Notes under the pieces: generated by a model
What the model saw: the letters and a program-made list of their open reading frames with translations, nothing else
What the model was told of the DNA's origin: nothing
The model's database searches: none
From: Escherichia phage JoYop
Sequence record: OR769032.1
Length of the DNA: 64,000 nt
Strand: one strand, 5' to 3'
Shown here: positions 31,148-42,320 of the stretch, one piece after another
How the letters are laid out: every line of letters starts with the position of its first letter
How positions within the stretch are numbered: position 1 is the stretch's first letter
Made by a program: the position numbers and the translations under genes

Positions 31148-31477
31148 TCAATTAGAAAATAAATTTATCCAAGATTGTTCTTTAATTAAAAATGGCTCAG
31201 AATCATATGCCATTAAACTCTGGGTAATTAATCCTTTAAATGGTCCATCAATAAATTCCATTGTAAAATATGGAATTTTATTCATTAACCGTGCATTAGG
31301 AGCAGTGCACAAAACTCTGCATCCTTTGAATACGCCTTTCTGCAATTTATACTGCTTAGGATAAAATTCGCTCAAAATGTTGTTATTTGCCAAAATTTCA
31401 AAATGATTCACCAATTTATTTTTAATAGTTTTTGGCGAAAAATAAAGATATTCGAAAAGCTGTGCATCTGTCATCAT
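31148..31477 (-). CDS. hypothetical protein
   Basis: ATG at 31477 in overlapping ATGATGA junction. Confidence 0.4.
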
Positions 31478-32061
31478 TGCATTCCGATTACGAAAAACTG
31501 TGGACGAGTAATACCACCAATGCAGCATTTACTTTTACAGCAATGTTGCACAGTGTCAATATGAATGTCGTAAATCTTATCCATATCAGGAGATTTAACG
31601 GGCTCATCAATTATATACAAAATTCGTGAAAGCGATAAACCTCTGAACTTGCTTCCTTTATTACCAATAAAACTGCGCACAGAATCAGTAAATAAACGAA
31701 AACGTATATCATCGTTAGAATAACGCGAAAATTCCTTTTTAATGTTATTTGCAGAAATTTTAGCGTAAGCTGAAGTATTAGAAAGAACAATAACTGTTCC
31801 GCCATCATACAACCAATTGGCAGCAAAATTAGTCACAGCAATTGATTTACCGGATTGACGTCCACCGTCAAGTCGAAGTGTGCAGTACTGTTTAAGTAAG
31901 TCTTCAAATGGCGGGATATATTCGTTTTTACAAATTTCTTCTACTCTAGCATCAGAATGGTGTGTAAAAGCATTCATCAGGGATAGATAAGGACCAGTCA
32001 AAAATGTTCTCATTTTGTTCTCTCTAGATTTGGGCCATTCCATGGCGCATGAATTGTCCAT
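31474..32061 (-). CDS. hypothetical protein with P-loop-like motif
   Basis: 195 aa; GGRQSGKS resembles a Walker A; ATG start. Confidence 0.45.
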   Translation of the reverse strand: MDNSCAMEWPKSRENKMRTFLTGPYLSLMNAFTHHSDARVEEICKNEYIPPFEDLLKQYCTLRLDGGRQSGKSIAVTNFAANWLYDGGTVIVLSNTSAYAKISANNIKKEFSRYSNDDIRFRLFTDSVRSFIGNKGSKFRGLSLSRILYIIDEPVKSPDMDKIYDIHIDTVQHCCKSKCCIGGITRPQFFVIGMQ

Positions 32062-32093
32062 TCCTGTATTTACCCCTCCAAGTAATTATGAAT

Positions 32094-32123
32094 ATACTAT
32101 CACAATTCTAGGAGAAAGTAAAC
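32094..32123 (-). promoter_or_regulatory. T4-type early promoter
   Basis: Minus strand GTTTACT-(18 nt)-TGA-TAGTAT. Confidence 0.45.
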
Positions 32124-32125
32124 TG

Positions 32126-32428
32126 TTATTTACCTTTAATTACTTTAGCTGCTTCGATAGCCGCTTGCTGAAGGTCATCCATAGACATACCGAATTTAGA
32201 AGCAAAGTTATCAATTTTCTTTTCGACAGCATTCAAAGGCTTGGCCTGTTTACCTTCATTAGCGCCAGGAAGAGCGAGAATACGCTCTTTGTCAATATAA
32301 AGGCTTACAAGTTTCTTACGGTCTTTATCGGACAAATCATGAAATGAATGGGCCTTTTTATTTATAGCGGCTTCTAATTTACCTGCACTCACTCGCGCTT
32401 CAGTAATAAATTCTTGATAGGTTTTCAT
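32126..32428 (-). CDS. ipII: Internal protein II (capsid-targeted)
   Basis: 100 aa starting MKTYQEFITEARVSAGKLEAA, the capsid targeting sequence shared by T4 internal proteins. Confidence 0.7.
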   Translation of the reverse strand: MKTYQEFITEARVSAGKLEAAINKKAHSFHDLSDKDRKKLVSLYIDKERILALPGANEGKQAKPLNAVEKKIDNFASKFGMSMDDLQQAAIEAAKVIKGK

Positions 32429-32468
32429 ATGTTTCCTTTAATGTAAATAGATTTGAGTATTCGTTTTA

Positions 32469-33047
32469 TTAGGAATTACGGGCTGCATTAGCAACGGCGT
32501 AAGCGTACTGAATATTGACGTCTTTAAACGTACCTTTGGAGGTATCTATTTCTGCCTTAAAGCCGCCTTTAGTCATAACATCGGCAAATTCTTTACGGAA
32601 AGCCATTGCATCAAGACCTTTCCATGATGATTTATGCTTAGCAAATTCAAGACCAGCGTAGTTGACAGCCTTAGCTAATTTATTATCAATAACCCATTTA
32701 CCGGCTTTAGGTACAAACACTGGGCCTTTCTGTTTAGAGAATAGTTTTAAATTCCAACGACGAAGGTCACCGTCAGCTTTAACAAAAGCTGCGTCCAAGT
32801 TACTAGCAACAACATCTTGAATATGGCCAAATTTAAGCCCATCAACTTCAATATTTAGATCAGTACGCCAGCGAAGTCCTTCCCAAGCGAAAGCTTTAAA
32901 GTCAGAAGCTTTTGTAGCTAAGTACCGTTCAATAGGAGCCGTTTTAGGGTCAAAGCCGTTTCCCGATCGATAGGTCCACTCATCTTTATTAATGCCTTTG
33001 GCCTTTTCCACAGAAGCTTCAGCGATAAATTCTTTATACGTTTTCAT
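32469..33047 (-). CDS. ipIII: Internal protein III (capsid-targeted)
   Basis: 192 aa starting MKTYKEFIAEASVEKAK; size matches T4 IPIII. Confidence 0.65.
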   Translation of the reverse strand: MKTYKEFIAEASVEKAKGINKDEWTYRSGNGFDPKTAPIERYLATKASDFKAFAWEGLRWRTDLNIEVDGLKFGHIQDVVASNLDAAFVKADGDLRRWNLKLFSKQKGPVFVPKAGKWVIDNKLAKAVNYAGLEFAKHKSSWKGLDAMAFRKEFADVMTKGGFKAEIDTSKGTFKDVNIQYAYAVANAARNS

Positions 33048-33075
33048 GTGTTTCCTTGTTTGTTTTGATAGAGTA

Positions 33076-33105
33076 ATTATACCATATTAATACTTAAGCG
33101 TAAAC
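33076..33105 (-). promoter_or_regulatory. T4-type early promoter
   Basis: Minus strand GTTTAC-(18 nt)-TGG-TATAAT. Confidence 0.55.
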
Positions 33106-33108
33106 TGT

Positions 33109-33369
33109 TTAAGCTTTACCGCCAGAAATAATTCCGAAGTTGTTAAAATCGTATCCAATATCGTCAACATCTACTTTAGGGCTTGCTACAACATAAGCAA
33201 TTTCACTACGTTTTGCATAGGTGTTTATTTCTTTACCATCACCGCCTAGGAAAGAATACCCATTACGTTTTAATGAGCCAAAGTCTTCCGCATCACCAAT
33301 GAAAGCTTTAACTTTAAATTTAGGACCTTTGGCATCTGCTTCAGTGATAAATTCTTGATACATTTTCAT
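33109..33369 (-). CDS. additional internal-protein-like gene with CTS
   Basis: 86 aa starting MKMYQEFITEADAKG. Confidence 0.5.
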   Translation of the reverse strand: MKMYQEFITEADAKGPKFKVKAFIGDAEDFGSLKRNGYSFLGGDGKEINTYAKRSEIAYVVASPKVDVDDIGYDFNNFGIISGGKA

Positions 33370-33375
33370 TTTTCC

Positions 33376-33789
33376 TTAGTAAATTGATTTACCATAGTAT
33401 TTGTACCAAGTAGGACGTTGAGCAATTTTTTCGTCTAAGCGTGCTTGACTTATCGCAATGGACGCTTCGGACGGGACATAATTATTACGAAATTCGGCAG
33501 GGATGTCAGAAATATCCTGGACAGATGTGTCCTTGATTTTGAAACCACGTTTCAAGCATTCGGCGATTAGCTCGATTTGACGTAAACGTAAAAATTCAAG
33601 TTTGTCGTAAAAGAATGTTACATGACCTGTGCCTAAGATAAATGTTGGAGAGATTTTAAAATCCTTTACACGTTTACCGTTTTGAACATGTTTACGGACT
33701 GCACCAAATACGCGTGGTAATTCACGATACTCAGCCATAAGATGTTGGTCGGTCAGTTCAGAAACAAGTGTTAAATTGATACGAGTCAT
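33376..33789 (-). CDS. denV: Endonuclease V (pyrimidine dimer DNA glycosylase) DenV
   Basis: Track start is TTG; from ATG at 33789 the protein reads [35 protein letters not shown]..., recognised as T4 endo V. Confidence 0.9.
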
Positions 33790-33816
33790 AATTTCCTCCA
33801 AGTAGTTGATGAATGT

Positions 33817-33846
33817 ATAGTATCAAAGTCCTTGGAGGAAGTAAAC
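33817..33846 (-). promoter_or_regulatory. T4-type early promoter
   Basis: Minus strand GTTTACT-(18 nt)-TGA-TACTAT. Confidence 0.5.
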
Positions 33847-33847
33847 A

Positions 33848-34129
33848 CTATTTTTCTGAAGCGCCTGAAATATATTTTTCAAGACGTTGTTTCATCAGCG
33901 AGCCGTTCTTAGCGATTTCTTCCGGTTTATCGCACATACGCAACAAAGCTTCAAGCTTAACGATATCACTGGTACGTTCAAATTTGCGAGTATCTATCTT
34001 ACTAGCAAGTTCAGAAATACGTGCTAATAGACTTTCGGCTTCAACCAAAGCTGCACCTAGCTTAGTTGCAAATGTGTCAGTAGCTTCGTTAAGAATAGAT
34101 TCTGATAAAAATTCACTATATGTTTTCAT
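33848..34129 (-). CDS. additional internal-protein-like gene with CTS
   Basis: Track start TTG; ATG at 34129 in ATGA overlap with lysozyme stop; protein starts [16 protein letters not shown]. Confidence 0.5.
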
Positions 34130-34614
34130 ATATACGCTTTCCAAGTTCCTGTTTTAAATGTTGAGATTACGCGTTTCGCGCGATTAGGTGTCTGACGGTA
34201 CCATTTAGATTGGGCTAGATTTACTGCCGCTTCATCCCAACGTTTCTGTTGAAGCATACGAAGAGAATTAGTAAAACCAGCGACGCCTGCTACACCCATT
34301 TGGAAGACCATATTGACCAACGCACATCGACGAACTGCATCTAAAGAATCATATACCGGTTTAAGTTTAGCATTACCCAAGATTCCGCGAACGGCTTTAT
34401 CAACGTCTTCATTAAATAGCTTTTCAGCCTCATCAAGGGTAATTGTACCGTTGCATTTACGTCCGATCATTCTGTCAAGTTCAGCTTTAGCTACGGCTAA
34501 AGACGGGTTCTTTGTTACTAAATGGCCTATGCCAATCGTCCAAAAGCCTTCAGTGTCTTTGTATAAAGTCAGTCTAAGACCTTCATCTATACGTAACATT
34601 TCAAATATATTCAT
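34126..34614 (-). CDS. e: Endolysin (T4 lysozyme family)
   Basis: 162 aa [32 protein letters not shown]...; catalytic E11/D20/T26 context conserved; about 85 percent identical to recalled T4 lysozyme. Confidence 0.95.
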
Positions 34615-34627
34615 AATACCTCCTAAG

Positions 34628-34648
34628 TATTTATAGAAGGTATTTATA
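34628..34648 (-). promoter_or_regulatory. two tandem late promoters (TATAAATA) upstream of e
   Basis: Minus strand contains TATAAATA twice (plus-strand TATTTATA at about 34628-34635 and 34641-34648). Confidence 0.5.
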
Positions 34649-38146: not shown

Positions 38147-38284
38147 AGTTTTGTGAAAAAATTTTTAAAAAGTTTTGGGGAATTCTAGGGCAGGGAGGGG
38201 CAATTAAAGGATAGGATAATATATTATAAAGGGTAGAAACTAAATGATGCCTAGAGAGGCCCGGAAAGGCCTAGATATCAAAAA

Positions 38285-38304
38285 CCCCAACCTTTCGGCT
38301 GAGG
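38285..38304 (-). terminator. intrinsic terminator after internal-protein-like gene
   Basis: CCTCAGCC-GAAA-GGTTGGGG hairpin then TTTTTG on minus strand; a second GGCC...GGCC hairpin follows. Confidence 0.5.
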
Positions 38305-38313
38305 CTAAGAATG

Positions 38314-38787
38314 TTATTTGATTTGTTTAGCAGACCAAATGCGGTCTTTAATAATTTTTTGGATGTCTTCAACATACTCAAGAGAGTGAACATGCGGGTT
38401 ATCTTTGAAACTATAAGCACGAGCTAGCTTTTGGCCTTCAGTTTTGATTACTAAAAGCTCTTTAAGGATAGCTTCATATTTGGAAATAATTCCTTTAACA
38501 ATATTTTTCTCTTGTGCGACTTTAGGATCTGCTTTAGGAGCAGGTTTACCTGAAGCTTTTGCAAAAGCAGCTCCAGTAGCAACTAAACTTTTCCAAGCCA
38601 TACTAACTGCATTTCCCGTAAATCCTTCTGCTTTCATATCGCGAGCAAATTGGAATCGCGATTCATCAGAAGCATCTTTATAGGAATATTTACCCGCGGC
38701 AATGGCAGCTTTTGCGACAGCTTGAATTTCGGTGCTAGATGCTTCATTTAACACCGCTTCATTTAAAAATTGAGCATATGATTTCAT
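38314..38787 (-). CDS. additional internal-protein-like gene with CTS
   Basis: 157 aa starting MKSYAQFLNEAVLNEA; Ala/Lys-rich. Confidence 0.5.
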   Translation of the reverse strand: MKSYAQFLNEAVLNEASSTEIQAVAKAAIAAGKYSYKDASDESRFQFARDMKAEGFTGNAVSMAWKSLVATGAAFAKASGKPAPKADPKVAQEKNIVKGIISKYEAILKELLVIKTEGQKLARAYSFKDNPHVHSLEYVEDIQKIIKDRIWSAKQIK

Positions 38788-38838
38788 CTTATTTCCTGTT
38801 TTAATTCGGGGTTTTAATATACTTATTTATACTAAAAA

Positions 38839-38860
38839 GCCCCAACCTTTCGGTTGGGGC
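38839..38860 (-). terminator. intrinsic terminator closing the tRNA/stable RNA transcription unit
   Basis: GCCCCAACC-GAAA-GGTTGGGGC followed by TTTTTAG on minus strand. Confidence 0.6.
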
Positions 38861-38864
38861 TAAG

Positions 38865-39190
38865 CCTTGCGGCAACCTTGTCGGGGTTCCACCTGCTAAG
38901 GCAAGTGTTTGTACGAAACGCCGGGATTCGAACCCGGTTATCAAGCAGTTGACGCTACTCAATATTTTTAAAAGGCCATATCTCGACCATATCCGAACGT
39001 TCCGTCAAAAACGCTACTCGGCTTACGGCAAAGATATTTCCTCGAATCGATAATTCGGTGCGCCGTTTCTGCTGTGATATAAGGGAACATTAACAGATCG
39101 TAAAGATTTGTTAATGCCGGTCCTTAAACAGGGAGCATCAGTCCGACGACTTACCGGTAGCGACCCGGTTTCTTAATATTCTTTTAAAGC
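38865..39190 (-). ncRNA. candidate structured stable RNA(s), tRNA-like (cf. T4 rnaC/rnaD position)
   Basis: 326-bp ORF-free region downstream of tRNA-Arg; contains a tRNA T-arm-like CCGGG-TTCGAAT-CCCGG element and a distant complementary acceptor-like segment about 150 nt apart. Confidence 0.3.
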
Positions 39191-39541: not shown

Positions 39542-39618
<77 letters not shown>

Positions 39619-39622
39619 TATT

Positions 39623-39697
39623 TGGCGGACATGCATGGATTCGAACCATGGACCAATTGATTAACAGTCAACTGCTCTACCACTGAGCTACACATCC
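39623..39697 (-). tRNA. tRNA-Asn (anticodon GUU)
   Basis: Hand-folded: GGATGTG acceptor, D-arm GCTCAGTGGTAGAGC, anticodon loop CUGUUAA, T-loop TTCGAAT, CCA encoded. Confidence 0.65.
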
Positions 39698-39701
39698 AAA
39701 T

Positions 39702-39788
39702 TGGTGGGGAGTGATGGAGTCGAACCACCCGAGTCGCAATGACAATGGATTTACAGTCCACACCGCTACCTCTACGGGATAACTCCCC
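39702..39788 (-). tRNA. tRNA-Tyr (anticodon GUA), long variable arm
   Basis: 87 nt; anticodon stem-loop GTGGA-CUGUAAA-TCCAT; variable arm resembles bacterial tRNA-Tyr; D-arm fold less clean. Confidence 0.55.
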
Positions 39789-39801
39789 TTAATTCTTAAT
39801 T

Positions 39802-39876
39802 TGGTGGCCCTGGGTGGAATTGAACCACCATCTGGCGATTATGAGTCGCTTGCTTGAACCTTCCAGCTACAGGGCC
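39802..39876 (-). tRNA. tRNA with CAU anticodon (Ile2/lysidine-type or Met)
   Basis: Hand-folded: acceptor GGCCCTG, anticodon loop CUCAUAA; T4 has a CAU tRNA read as Ile. Confidence 0.6.
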
Positions 39877-39877
39877 T

Positions 39878-39953
39878 TGGTGCTGATTGACGGAATCGAA
39901 CCGCCGACCTTCTCATTACAAGTGAGTTGCTCTACCTACTGAGCTAAATCAGC
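39878..39953 (-). tRNA. tRNA-Thr (anticodon UGU)
   Basis: Hand-folded: D-arm GCTCAGTAGGTAGAGC, anticodon loop CUUGUAA. Confidence 0.65.
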
Positions 39954-39958
39954 AAAAC

Positions 39959-40048
39959 TGGCGGAGGCGATAGGATTTGAACCTATGAGTCGCCGGAGCG
40001 ACTGCCGGTTTTCAAGACCGGTGCATTAAACCACTCTGCCACGCCTCC
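39959..40048 (-). tRNA. tRNA-Ser (anticodon UGA), long variable arm
   Basis: 90 nt; anticodon stem-loop CCGGT-CUUGAAA-ACCGG. Confidence 0.65.
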
Positions 40049-40050
40049 AG

Positions 40051-40124
40051 TCTCCATACAAGGATTTGAACCTTGGACCTCCTGATCCCAAATCAGGCGC
40101 TCTACCAAACTGAGCTACACGGAG
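40051..40124 (-). tRNA. tRNA-Pro (anticodon UGG)
   Basis: Hand-folded: anticodon stem-loop CCTGA-UUUGGGA-TCAGG; CCA not encoded. Confidence 0.65.
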
Positions 40125-40134
40125 TAAATTAAAT

Positions 40135-40208
<74 letters not shown>

Positions 40209-40213
40209 AAATT

Positions 40214-40300
40214 TGGTGCGAGAAGTGGGACTCGAACCCACAAGGAAATCATTCCGCAGCATTTTAAGTGCTGTGCCTTTACCAATTTGACCATTCTCGC
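40214..40300 (-). tRNA. tRNA-Leu (anticodon UAA), long variable arm
   Basis: 87 nt; anticodon stem-loop CAGCA-CUUAAAA-TGCTG; T-arm GTGGG-TTCGAGT-CCCAC. Confidence 0.65.
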
Positions 40301-41951: not shown

Positions 41952-42260
41952 CTATTTTATTCCGCGTGATGCAATTGTATTCTGTCGTTTAACACTAGTT
42001 TGTTTAAAGTCATGATTGTCGATTTGATCGGTACGAGCAACCCCGAATGATGATTTAATCTTAGCTTTAGATCCTTTAGTTATAGAAATAAACATCTCGG
42101 AAGCCCCTTTCTTAAAGTCAGAAGCGATTACTTCAACACCGTTCTTAGCAAGTGACCCCAGAATTGCCTCCGCATACTCATCGTCAAGACTAGCCTGAGT
42201 ATTAATAACGAATGTCTTTGGTGCAACTGCTTCATTGATAAATTCTTTGAAAGTTTTCAT
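41952..42260 (-). CDS. ipI: Internal protein I-like (capsid-targeted)
   Basis: 102 aa starting MKTFKEFINEAVAPK; located just upstream of 57B as T4 ipI. Confidence 0.6.
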   Translation of the reverse strand: MKTFKEFINEAVAPKTFVINTQASLDDEYAEAILGSLAKNGVEVIASDFKKGASEMFISITKGSKAKIKSSFGVARTDQIDNHDFKQTSVKRQNTIASRGIK

Positions 42261-42290: not shown

Positions 42291-42320
42291 ATAGTATCAC
42301 TACCTCATCAGTATGTAAAC
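42291..42320 (-). promoter_or_regulatory. T4-type early promoter
   Basis: Minus strand GTTTACA-(18 nt)-TGA-TACTAT. Confidence 0.5.

What the first reader, a model, noticed from the sequence alone, without database searches (positions are those of the whole stretch)
32126..34129. Expanded set of capsid-targeted internal protein genes around denV
Four ORFs in this interval start with the capsid targeting sequence MK(T/M)Y(Q/K/S)EF(I/L).E(A/S): ipII-like (32126-32428), ipIII-like (32469-33047) and two further small CTS genes (33109-33369 and 33848-34129) flanking denV. With the ipI-like gene and another at 38314-38787, the window encodes six CTS proteins, whereas T4 is known for three. Internal proteins are injected with the DNA, and T4 IPI* is a known anti-restriction factor, so extra variable CTS cargo genes are prime candidates for injected anti-defence proteins.
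Basis: partly seen in the sequence, partly recalled or inferred. Interest (0 to 1): 0.6.

Follow-up and report, generated by a model that had tools for sequence, protein, structure and literature searches.

The report
Known T-even phage internal protein genes
This T4-like phage segment carries six genes for small proteins with the signal that loads them into the phage head for injection with the DNA; such variable sets are already documented in T4 relatives as inhibitors of host restriction enzymes, so the finding is correct but mostly ordinary.

Summary
Six minus-strand genes start with the T4 capsid targeting sequence (CTS), MK-x-[Y/F]-x-[E/Q]-F-[I/L]-x-E. About 0.005-0.05 such starts are expected by chance. 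All six carry the residues shown experimentally to matter for targeting (4, 7) and for cleavage by the prohead protease gp21 (8, 10).

The identities are:
- IPII and IPIII orthologues, each 93% identical to T4.
- An 86-aa remote relative of Ip7 (phrog_2667).
- A 93-aa paralogue of Ip5 (48% identity).
- True Ip7 at the ipI locus (97% to RB15 Ip7), so it is not an IPI orthologue.
- A 157-aa protein between e.8 and the tRNA genes.

The interpretation matches published work. The literature cites more than 30 IP variants. T4 Ip1, Ip2 and Ip3 each block a different GmrSD type IV restriction enzyme, and another CTS protein blocks McrBC. The two genes flanking denV occur in 217 and 496 phage records, and RefSeq calls them "internal head protein". 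Shigella phage phi25-307 has seven CTS genes, so six is not exceptional.

The only mildly new point is the 157-aa gene. It sits in a third locus not named in the papers I read. It is labelled "hypothetical" in every record listed of 511. It is a late-promoter cassette bounded by a duplicated terminator hairpin. Packaging and targets remain untested.

The parts
32126..32428 (-). ipII orthologue (100 aa), CTS MKTYQEFITE|A
   Evidence: 93% identical to T4 IPII over the mature part; phrog_7857 'internal virion protein', E 4.5e-55
32469..33047 (-). ipIII orthologue (192 aa), CTS MKTYKEFIAE|A
   Evidence: 93% identical to T4 IPIII; phrog_5341, E 1.9e-117
33076..33104 (-). T4 early-type promoter (TTTACG-17-TATAAT with TG) upstream of ipIII
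   Evidence: the same element lies upstream of gp085 in phi25-307
33109..33369 (-). 86-aa CTS gene (MKMYQEFITE|A), remote member of the Ip7 group; its Shine-Dalgarno sequence overlaps the denV stop codon
   Evidence: phrog_2667 'internal head protein', E 2.7e-21, the same PHROG as Ip7; hhalign against Ip7 gives probability 83%; present in 217 phage records and named 'internal head protein' in RefSeq
33376..33789 (-). denV (endonuclease V), not a CTS gene; embedded between the two extra ip genes
   Evidence: Pfam Pyr_excise and phrog_1183; only 78% nucleotide identity to T4 denV, and in a different position from T4
33848..34129 (-). 93-aa CTS gene ([10 protein letters not shown]|SILNE|A), a paralogue of Ip5; its ATG overlaps the stop codon of e (ATGA)
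   Evidence: 48% identity, E 1e-24, to RB14 Ip5; phrog_3499 'internal head protein', E 1.2e-46; 496 phage records, 132 of them at 99% or more; overlap with e seen
34126..34614 (-). e (lysozyme), with two T4 late promoters (TATAAATA) at 34628-34635 and 34641-34648 that can drive late transcription into the downstream ip genes
   Evidence: T4 has the same promoter pair
38314..38787 (-). 157-aa CTS gene (MKSYAQFLNE|AVLNE|A) between e.8 and rnaC/tRNAs, a third Ip locus
   Evidence: phrog_2280 'unknown function'; 511 phage records, and 'hypothetical protein' in all 40 listed; homologues keep MKxYxEFLxE|(A/Q)S; AlphaFold2 model is all-helical, pLDDT 76.6, with no fold match
38824..38831 (-). T4 late promoter TATAAATA, 44 nt upstream of the 157-aa gene
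   Evidence: conserved at -46 in the Bas37 orthologue
38835..38864 (-). Upstream copy of the terminator hairpin (AGCCCCAACCGAAAGGTTGGGGCTTTTT) bounding the 157-aa cassette
   Evidence: T4 has a single copy at this site
38280..38309 (-). Downstream copy of the same hairpin (90% identical direct repeat, 555 nt spacing)
41952..42260 (-). Ip7 (102 aa, MKTFKEFINE|A) at the ipI locus, between the trna.4 and 57B homologues
   Evidence: 97.1% identical to RB15 Ip7 (Z35082) and 95% to T2 ip7; phrog_2667, E 4e-41
42291..42319 (-). T4 early-type promoter with overlapping stem-loop upstream of ip7; nearly identical to the element upstream of T4 ipI and RB14 Ip5

Best explanation
The window comes from a T4-like phage of the Tequatrovirus type. 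It is about 95% identical to RB14 and carries an alpha-glucosyltransferase gene. It encodes six internal proteins (Ips) in three hypervariable spots: four between vs.8 and e (IPII, IPIII, an Ip7-like 86-aa protein and an Ip5-like 93-aa protein, with denV among them), one between e.8 and rnaC/tRNAs (157 aa), and Ip7 at the classical ipI locus. Inferred mechanism, by analogy with T4: the 10-residue N-terminal CTS binds each protein to the scaffolding core of the prohead. The prohead protease gp21 cuts after Glu10, and probably also after Glu15 in the 93-aa and 157-aa proteins. The mature proteins stay in the head with the DNA and are ejected into the cell at infection. There each binds and blocks one variant of a modification-dependent (type IV) restriction enzyme of the GmrSD or McrBC kind, which would otherwise cut the glucosyl-hydroxymethylcytosine DNA. 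For IPII and IPIII the target can be transferred from T4: the GmrSD of E. coli ECOR21 (BrxU type) and the GmrS1/GmrSD2 pair of ECOR17. For the other four the target is unknown. The repertoire is built by cassette shuffling. Genes are swapped or inserted by recombination at short shared sequences: the SD+CTS-coding patch, early-promoter/stem-loop elements, and for the 157-aa gene a duplicated terminator hairpin. Shown here: the motifs, the homologies, the locus structure, the promoters and the insertion junctions. Inferred: packaging, cleavage, ejection and the anti-restriction activity of the four non-T4 proteins.
For: The CTS is present in six genes, against about 0.005-0.05 expected by chance. 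The residues that matter for targeting (4 = Y/F, 7 = F) and for processing (8 = I/L, 10 = E) fit the mutational map summarised in PMC9026906. [L/I]xE ends at residue 10 in all six. Mature parts are unrelated except for orthologues. IPII and IPIII are 93% identical to T4; Ip7 is 97% identical to RB15 Ip7; the 93-aa protein is 48% identical to Ip5; the 86-aa protein falls in phrog_2667 with Ip7. Expression signals fit virion proteins. There are two late promoters before e, the 93-aa ATG overlaps the e stop codon, the 86-aa Shine-Dalgarno sequence overlaps the denV stop codon, and the 157-aa gene has its own conserved late promoter. Function in relatives: Ip1, Ip2 and Ip3 each block one GmrSD variant (PMC12373910); IPIII is needed to infect ECOR17; Bas37_0260 blocks McrBC. 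Shuffling: 45-nt SD+CTS patches are 93% identical between different ip genes, and the locus is a mosaic (ipII/ipIII 91-93% to T4, denV 78%, e 83%). The 157-aa cassette is an exact insertion relative to T4, bounded by 30-nt direct repeats. The number of CTS genes per locus varies between T4, RB14, Bas37, mogra, phi25-307 and this window.
Against: There is no virion proteomics or cleavage data for the 86-, 93- or 157-aa proteins in anything I could reach. Silas et al. tested ip4-10 against 15 GmrSD groups and found no reproducible inhibition, so the extra Ips may target something else. The gene for gp21 lies outside the window. The Shine-Dalgarno spacing of the 86-aa gene favours the second ATG, which would remove 'MK' from the CTS in this particular allele. 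The AlphaFold2 model of the 86-aa protein was unusable (pLDDT 43.5). The 157-aa model has no informative fold match, so no structural support for an inhibitor role was obtained.
Confidence: 0.8

Rival explanations
1. The extra CTS proteins are packaged and injected, but they act on targets other than type IV restriction enzymes. Candidates are other defence systems or host takeover functions, as with the packaged ADP-ribosyltransferase Alt.
For: ip4-10 gave no reproducible inhibition of 15 GmrSD groups. The mature parts have no detectable similarity to Ip1, Ip2, Ip3 or Bas37_0260. No sequence match to any solved structure for the four non-T4 proteins, and no fold match for the 157-aa model.
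Against: All four CTS proteins with a known target (Ip1, Ip2, Ip3, Bas37_0260) inhibit type IV enzymes. GmrSD diversity is far larger than the panel tested. The phage carries a-gt, so its DNA is presumably glucosylated and exposed to that class of enzyme.
Confidence: 0.3
2. They are mainly structural. In this view they are basic, DNA-associated head-filling proteins that neutralise charge or help DNA packing and ejection, with no specific anti-defence role.
For: IPII, IPIII, the 157-aa protein and Ip7 are net basic (+5, +9, +7, +4). NMR work cited in PMC3012670 found lysines of internal proteins in contact with DNA phosphates.
Against: The 86-aa and 93-aa proteins are net -1, like the McrBC inhibitor Bas37_0260. 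The genes vary by presence or absence between close relatives, which fits arms-race cargo better than a structural need. T4 Ips are dispensable on laboratory hosts and condition-specific on wild hosts.
Confidence: 0.1
3. The shared 5' end is only a recombination or translation-initiation cassette carried along with shuffled genes, and some of these proteins, especially the 157-aa one outside the classical loci, are not packaged at all.
For: The Shine-Dalgarno sequence plus the first 30 nt are 93% identical between some genes and could be maintained at the DNA level. The 157-aa family is never annotated as a virion protein in the records listed.
Against: Synonymous codon differences occur at conserved residues (Thr3 uses all four codons). 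The functionally mapped residues 4, 7, 8 and 10 are kept in distant homologues whose DNA has diverged. The 157-aa gene has a conserved late promoter. In T4, the 10-residue CTS alone is sufficient to package foreign proteins.
Confidence: 0.07

Closest known systems
T4 internal proteins IPI*, IPII and IPIII (Ip1-3), injected inhibitors of GmrSD type IV restriction enzymes
   Same: The same 10-residue CTS with a gp21 site. Two of the six genes are 93% orthologues of IPII and IPIII. The same two classical loci, next to e and next to 57B. Small proteins with unrelated mature parts.
   Different: There is no IPI orthologue here; Ip7 occupies that locus. denV lies among the ip genes instead of to their left. 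Four of the six proteins have no known target.
Ip4-Ip10 and further variants of T-even phages (Repoila et al. 1994; 'more than 30 variants', Comeau et al. 2007 as cited in PMC2839356)
   Same: Ip7 here is 97% identical to RB15 Ip7. The 93-aa protein is an Ip5 paralogue. The 86-aa protein shares a PHROG with Ip7.
   Different: The Ip5-like and Ip7-like genes here sit at the e/denV locus, not at the ipI locus where T2 and RB14 carry ip5 and ip7. I could not read Repoila 1994 or Comeau 2007, so I cannot say whether these exact variants were listed.
Bas37_0260, a CTS protein at the ipI locus of phage Bas37 (KarlGJung) that inhibits McrBC
   Same: The same CTS (MKTYQEFIAE|T). It is small and slightly acidic (net -1), like the 86-aa and 93-aa proteins.
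   Different: No sequence similarity beyond the CTS to any of the six proteins here; it belongs to a different PHROG (8111).
Promoter-early stem-loop (PeSL) cassettes of RB49/phi1 and the analogous IP-associated elements of T-even phages (Arbiol et al. 2010, PMC2839356)
   Same: Variable genes are flanked by short conserved promoter or stem-loop elements that can recombine. The 157-aa gene is bounded by direct repeats of a GGGG...CCCC hairpin.
   Different: The element flanking the 157-aa gene is a terminator hairpin followed by a late promoter, not an early promoter. Recombination at it is inferred from junctions, not observed.
Phage P1 Dar proteins (packaged defence-against-restriction proteins)
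   Same: Head-packaged proteins injected with the DNA to protect it from restriction (PMC12810830, abstract).
   Different: Unrelated phage. From my own knowledge, they act against type I restriction.

Membership tests
T-even internal proteins (CTS-bearing Ip class) | N-terminal 10-residue capsid targeting sequence, with the targeting determinants at residue 4 (aromatic) and residue 7 (Phe) | tested here: met
   Residue 4 is Y in five proteins and F in one; residue 7 is F in all six. Determinants as summarised in PMC9026906.
T-even internal proteins (CTS-bearing Ip class) | gp21 processing site L/I-x-E, with Glu (not Asp) at residue 10 | tested here: met
   [LI]xE ends at residue 10 in all six. 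A second site ends at residue 15 in the 93-aa and 157-aa proteins. Actual cleavage was not tested.
T-even internal proteins (CTS-bearing Ip class) | Mature parts unrelated between different Ips; only the leader is shared | tested here: met
   All-against-all BLASTP of the mature parts finds nothing significant except the T4 orthologues.
T-even internal proteins (CTS-bearing Ip class) | Location in one of the two described hypervariable IP loci (next to e/denV, or between the tRNA-side genes and 57B) | tested here: inconclusive
   Met for five genes. Not met for the 157-aa gene, which lies between e.8 and rnaC. Position is descriptive rather than functional, so this does not exclude membership.
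T-even internal proteins (CTS-bearing Ip class) | Physically present in the virion and ejected with the DNA | not testable with these tools
   Needs virion proteomics. I found no such data for the 86-, 93- or 157-aa families in the paper library.
T-even internal proteins (CTS-bearing Ip class) | The phage encodes the gp21 prohead protease and the scaffolding core (gp22, gp67, gp68) | not tested
   By the T4 gene order these genes lie beyond the end of the window. The window is about 95% identical to RB14-type Tequatrovirus genomes, and as I understand it these all carry them.
IPII and IPIII orthologues (GmrSD inhibitors Ip2 and Ip3) | Full-length sequence identity to T4 IPII and IPIII | tested here: met
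   93.3% over 90 residues and 93.4% over 182 residues.
Ip7 | Sequence identity to the RB15 and T2 Ip7 proteins, and position at the ipI locus | tested here: met
   97.1% to RB15 Ip7 (Z35082) and 95.1% to T2 ip7; located between the trna.4 and 57B homologues.
Ip5 | Full-length homology to Ip5 of RB14, T2 and PP01 | tested here: met
   48% identity over 84 residues, E 1e-24. It is a diverged paralogue at a different locus, not the orthologue.
Type IV restriction (GmrSD/McrBC) inhibitors | Demonstrated inhibition of a cognate type IV enzyme | not testable with these tools
   Shown only for T4 Ip1-3 and Bas37_0260. ip4-10 were negative on the panel tested.

The most novel reading that the evidence does not exclude
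[quoted passage not shown] It holds zero, one or two CTS genes in different phages. The 157-aa family is in 511 phage records and a 187-aa family in 165, and both are labelled 'hypothetical protein' in every record listed. The 157-aa gene is a self-contained late-promoter cassette, inserted precisely at the rnaC terminator hairpin, which is duplicated on both sides. If these proteins are packaged, they are widespread injected effectors missing from the Ip sets screened so far.
Probability: 0.4. Interest if true: 0.35.

Novelty: already known. Interest (0 to 1): 0.2.

Why it matters
Injected internal proteins are the phage's first countermeasure against enzymes that cut its modified DNA, and they help set host range, which matters for choosing therapeutic T4-like phages. 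That much is established. This window adds a worked example of how the repertoire is assembled: a mosaic locus, Ip5-like and Ip7-like genes moved next to denV, and a cassette bounded by a duplicated hairpin. It also gives a concrete pointer that two CTS families between e.8 and the tRNA genes are unannotated, and they are not among the Ip loci named in the screening papers I read.

Tried and rejected
1. I tested whether any of the six proteins is related to Bas37_0260, the McrBC inhibitor, which would have transferred a function. Only the CTS matches, so this was rejected.

2. I tested whether the 157-aa protein is 'Ip4' of RB14, which has the same length. The sequences are unrelated, so this was rejected.

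3. Sequence searches of the four non-T4 proteins against solved structures found nothing below E = 0.1.

4. The AlphaFold2 model of the 86-aa protein had pLDDT 43.5 and was unusable. The 157-aa model (pLDDT 76.6, all-helical) had no PDB match below E = 1.

5. Pfam gave only a weak DUF7412 match, below the curated cut-off, for IPII, and nothing for the other CTS proteins.

6. hhalign of the 157-aa family against the neighbouring 187-aa CTS protein of Bas37 aligned only the CTS, although both score strongly against phrog_2280. Their relationship is unresolved.

7. I found no virion proteomics for these families. The fHe-Yen9-01 primary paper is not held, and other searches returned nothing relevant. 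Repoila et al. 1994 is not held. Silas et al.'s supplements hold no ip4-10 sequences that I could match.

8. Several calls went on finding the accession of Bas37.
Full report
**What is there.**
The window is a T4-like genome segment. Its first 24 kb is about 95% identical to RB14 and related Tequatrovirus records and carries an alpha-glucosyltransferase gene. No record in the phage collection covers the flagged interval at more than about 96% identity.

On the minus strand the gene order is: vs.8 homologue, ipII (32126-32428), ipIII (32469-33047), an 86-aa gene (33109-33369), denV (33376-33789), a 93-aa gene (33848-34129), then e lysozyme (34126-34614). T4 has vs.8, denV, ipII, ipIII, e. So compared with T4, denV sits in a different place and two genes are extra.

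Further along there is a 157-aa gene (38314-38787) between the e.8 homologue and the rnaC/rnaD/tRNA cluster. A 102-aa gene (41952-42260) lies between the trna.4 and 57B homologues, which is the classical ipI position.

**Check of the observation.**
All six proteins begin MK-x-[Y/F]-x-[E/Q]-F-[I/L]-x-E.
- Of 1119 candidate starts followed by at least 40 open codons, six match, against 0.005-0.05 expected from composition. The motif occurs nowhere else in any of the six reading frames.
- A much looser pattern adds only three unconvincing hits that lack both Phe7 and the LxE site.
- Conservation is at the protein level. Thr3 uses ACC, ACG, ACA and ACT, and Ile8 uses ATT and ATC.
- Five of the six genes have an AGGA Shine-Dalgarno sequence. 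The 93-aa gene instead has its ATG overlapping the stop codon of e (ATGA).

The capsid targeting sequence (CTS) was defined experimentally as the first 10 residues of IPIII. Residues 4 and 7 matter for targeting and residues 8 and 10 for processing. The protease gp21 cuts after L/I-x-E (PMC9026906). All six proteins satisfy all four positions, and [L/I]xE ends exactly at residue 10 in each. The 93-aa and 157-aa proteins have a second site ending at residue 15. Beyond about residue 11 the six proteins are unrelated to each other.

**Identity of each gene.**
- **IPII and IPIII.** These are 93% identical to the T4 proteins.
- **The 102-aa protein.** It is Ip7: 97.1% identical to RB15 Ip7 (Z35082, a GenBank record deposited with the gene name ip7) and 95% to T2 ip7. 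It is not related to IPI beyond the leader.
- **The 93-aa protein.** It is a diverged paralogue of Ip5, with 48% identity and E 1e-24 to RB14 Ip5. It belongs to phrog_3499 'internal head protein'. It is found in 496 phage records, 132 of them at 99% identity or more.
- **The 86-aa protein.** It matches phrog_2667 'internal head protein' (E 2.7e-21), the same family that Ip7 matches at E 4e-41. hhalign against Ip7 gives 83% probability, with the alignment extending past the CTS. It is in 217 records. RefSeq annotates the 86-aa and 93-aa genes as 'internal head protein' and ipII/ipIII as 'internal virion protein', for example in Shigella phage phi25-307, where the same locus is 95% identical.
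- **The 157-aa protein.** It matches phrog_2280 'unknown function'. It is in 511 records, and it is 'hypothetical protein' in all 40 that were listed. Its homologues keep the leader. Several have exactly MK(S/T)Y(A/N)EFL(T)E followed by (A/Q)SSSD, which is the canonical 10-residue CTS. The allele here has a 5-residue insertion that creates two tandem LNE sites.

**Comparison with other phages.**
Counting CTS genes in the stretches I fetched gives T4 3, RB14 4, Bas37 at least 4, phi25-307 7, and this window 6.
- The e/denV locus holds none in Bas37, one (Ip4) in RB14, two in T4, four here and in mogra, and six in phi25-307.
- The e.8-tRNA interval holds none in T4 and phi25-307, a 187-aa CTS gene in RB14, that gene plus the 157-aa gene in Bas37 and EC.W14-2, and only the 157-aa gene here. 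The 187-aa gene is in 165 records, again 'hypothetical' in every one listed.

**How the repertoire is built.**
The e/denV locus is a mosaic. ipII and ipIII are 91-93% identical to T4 at the DNA level, denV only 78% and e 83%. 45-nt patches spanning the Shine-Dalgarno sequence and CTS codons are 93% identical between different ip genes.

T4 early-type promoters with overlapping stem-loops precede ipIII, denV and ip7. The one before ip7 is nearly the same as that before T4 ipI and RB14 Ip5. This matches the 'IP-associated elements' that Arbiol et al. attribute to Repoila et al. 1994 and propose as recombination linkers (PMC2839356).

The 157-aa gene is an exact insertion of about 520 bp relative to T4. 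It is bounded by two 30-nt copies (90% identical, 555 nt apart) of the GGGG...CCCC terminator hairpin, which T4 has once, downstream of rnaC. Bas37 and EC.W14-2 show the same duplication. The cassette carries its own late promoter TATAAATA, conserved in Bas37, which fits a virion protein. That recombination at the hairpin explains the presence or absence of the cassette is my inference.

**Mechanism.**
By analogy with T4, the CTS docks each protein onto the prohead core. gp21 then removes the leader, and the mature protein is ejected with the DNA.

In T4, Ip1, Ip2 and Ip3 each block one specific GmrSD-type enzyme with no cross-protection (PMC12373910). IPIII is needed to infect E. coli strain ECOR17. 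In phage Bas37 a different CTS protein blocks McrBC.

The IPII and IPIII orthologues here most likely have the T4 functions. For the 86-aa, 93-aa, 157-aa and Ip7 proteins, I take a type IV restriction inhibitor role to be the most likely, but it is untested, and ip4-10 gave no reproducible hits on the 15 GmrSD groups tried. No structural clue was obtained.

**Novelty and verdict.**
It is not new.
- Variable Ip sets in T-even phages were described in 1994 (Repoila et al., as cited).
- 'More than 30 known variants' are cited.
- The two genes flanking denV are common and already annotated as internal head proteins.

The one point that goes beyond the papers I could read is the third locus between e.8 and the tRNA genes. 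[quoted passage not shown] I could not read Repoila 1994 or Comeau 2007, so I cannot exclude that the 157-aa and 187-aa families were already listed there. Interest is therefore low.

Noticed in passing
window 38280-38309 and 38835-38864: The 157-aa CTS gene is bounded by two 30-nt direct repeats (90% identical) of a terminator hairpin that T4 has only once, downstream of rnaC. Relative to T4 the cassette is an exact insertion of about 520 bp. Bas37 and EC.W14-2 show the same duplication.
   Followed up: yes
window 38829-39173: This stretch is 92% identical to the T4 rnaC and rnaD small stable RNA genes. Rfam reported no family here (only tRNAs), and the mechanical ORFs 38801-38962 and 38968-39090 that overlie it are probably spurious.
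   Followed up: partly
window 39542-40300: A cluster of nine tRNA genes (Arg, Asn, Tyr, Met-CAU, Thr, Ser, Pro, Gly, Leu). It differs from the eight in T4: it has Asn and Tyr and lacks Gln. The RB14 annotators treat the CAU tRNA as tRNA-Ile. No segB-like gene interrupts the cluster, unlike in T4.
   Followed up: no
window 33376-33789 (denV) against 32093-33057 (ipII, ipIII): denV is only 78% identical to T4 denV at the DNA level, and e is 83%, while the adjacent ipII and ipIII are 91-93%. The block 86-aa gene / denV / 93-aa gene / e is about 95% identical to Mosigvirus phages (mogra, phi25-307). This suggests exchange between genera that are reported to modify their DNA differently.
   Followed up: partly
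window 33109-33369; L001 7114-7368; L009 11951-12205: Public annotations of the 86-aa gene in mogra and phi25-307 start at the second ATG (MYQEF...), which cuts 'MK' off the CTS. In this allele the Shine-Dalgarno spacing is 3 nt to the first ATG and 9 nt to the second. Orthologues with Thr at position 3 have only the first ATG.
   Followed up: partly
L009 10181-10558 (phi25-307 gp082) and window 31474-32061: phi25-307 gp082 is annotated from MDNSWAMEWSKPRENK..., but it contains a perfect CTS start (MKTYQEFITE) 16 codons in. The same MDNS.AMEW... extension heads the mechanical ORF of the vs.8 homologue in the window. Both are probably upstream read-in, not real N-termini.
   Followed up: no
L009 11573-11887 (phi25-307 gp085) and L008 13029-13592 (bas37_0243): These are further CTS genes annotated as hypothetical proteins: gp085 (104 aa, phrog_3966 'unknown function') and bas37_0243 (187 aa, phrog_2280). 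More CTS families are missing from current annotation.
   Followed up: partly
window 32359-32366 (minus strand): A T4 late-promoter octamer TATAAATA lies inside the ipII coding sequence. It may be chance, or a late promoter for the downstream vs genes.
   Followed up: no
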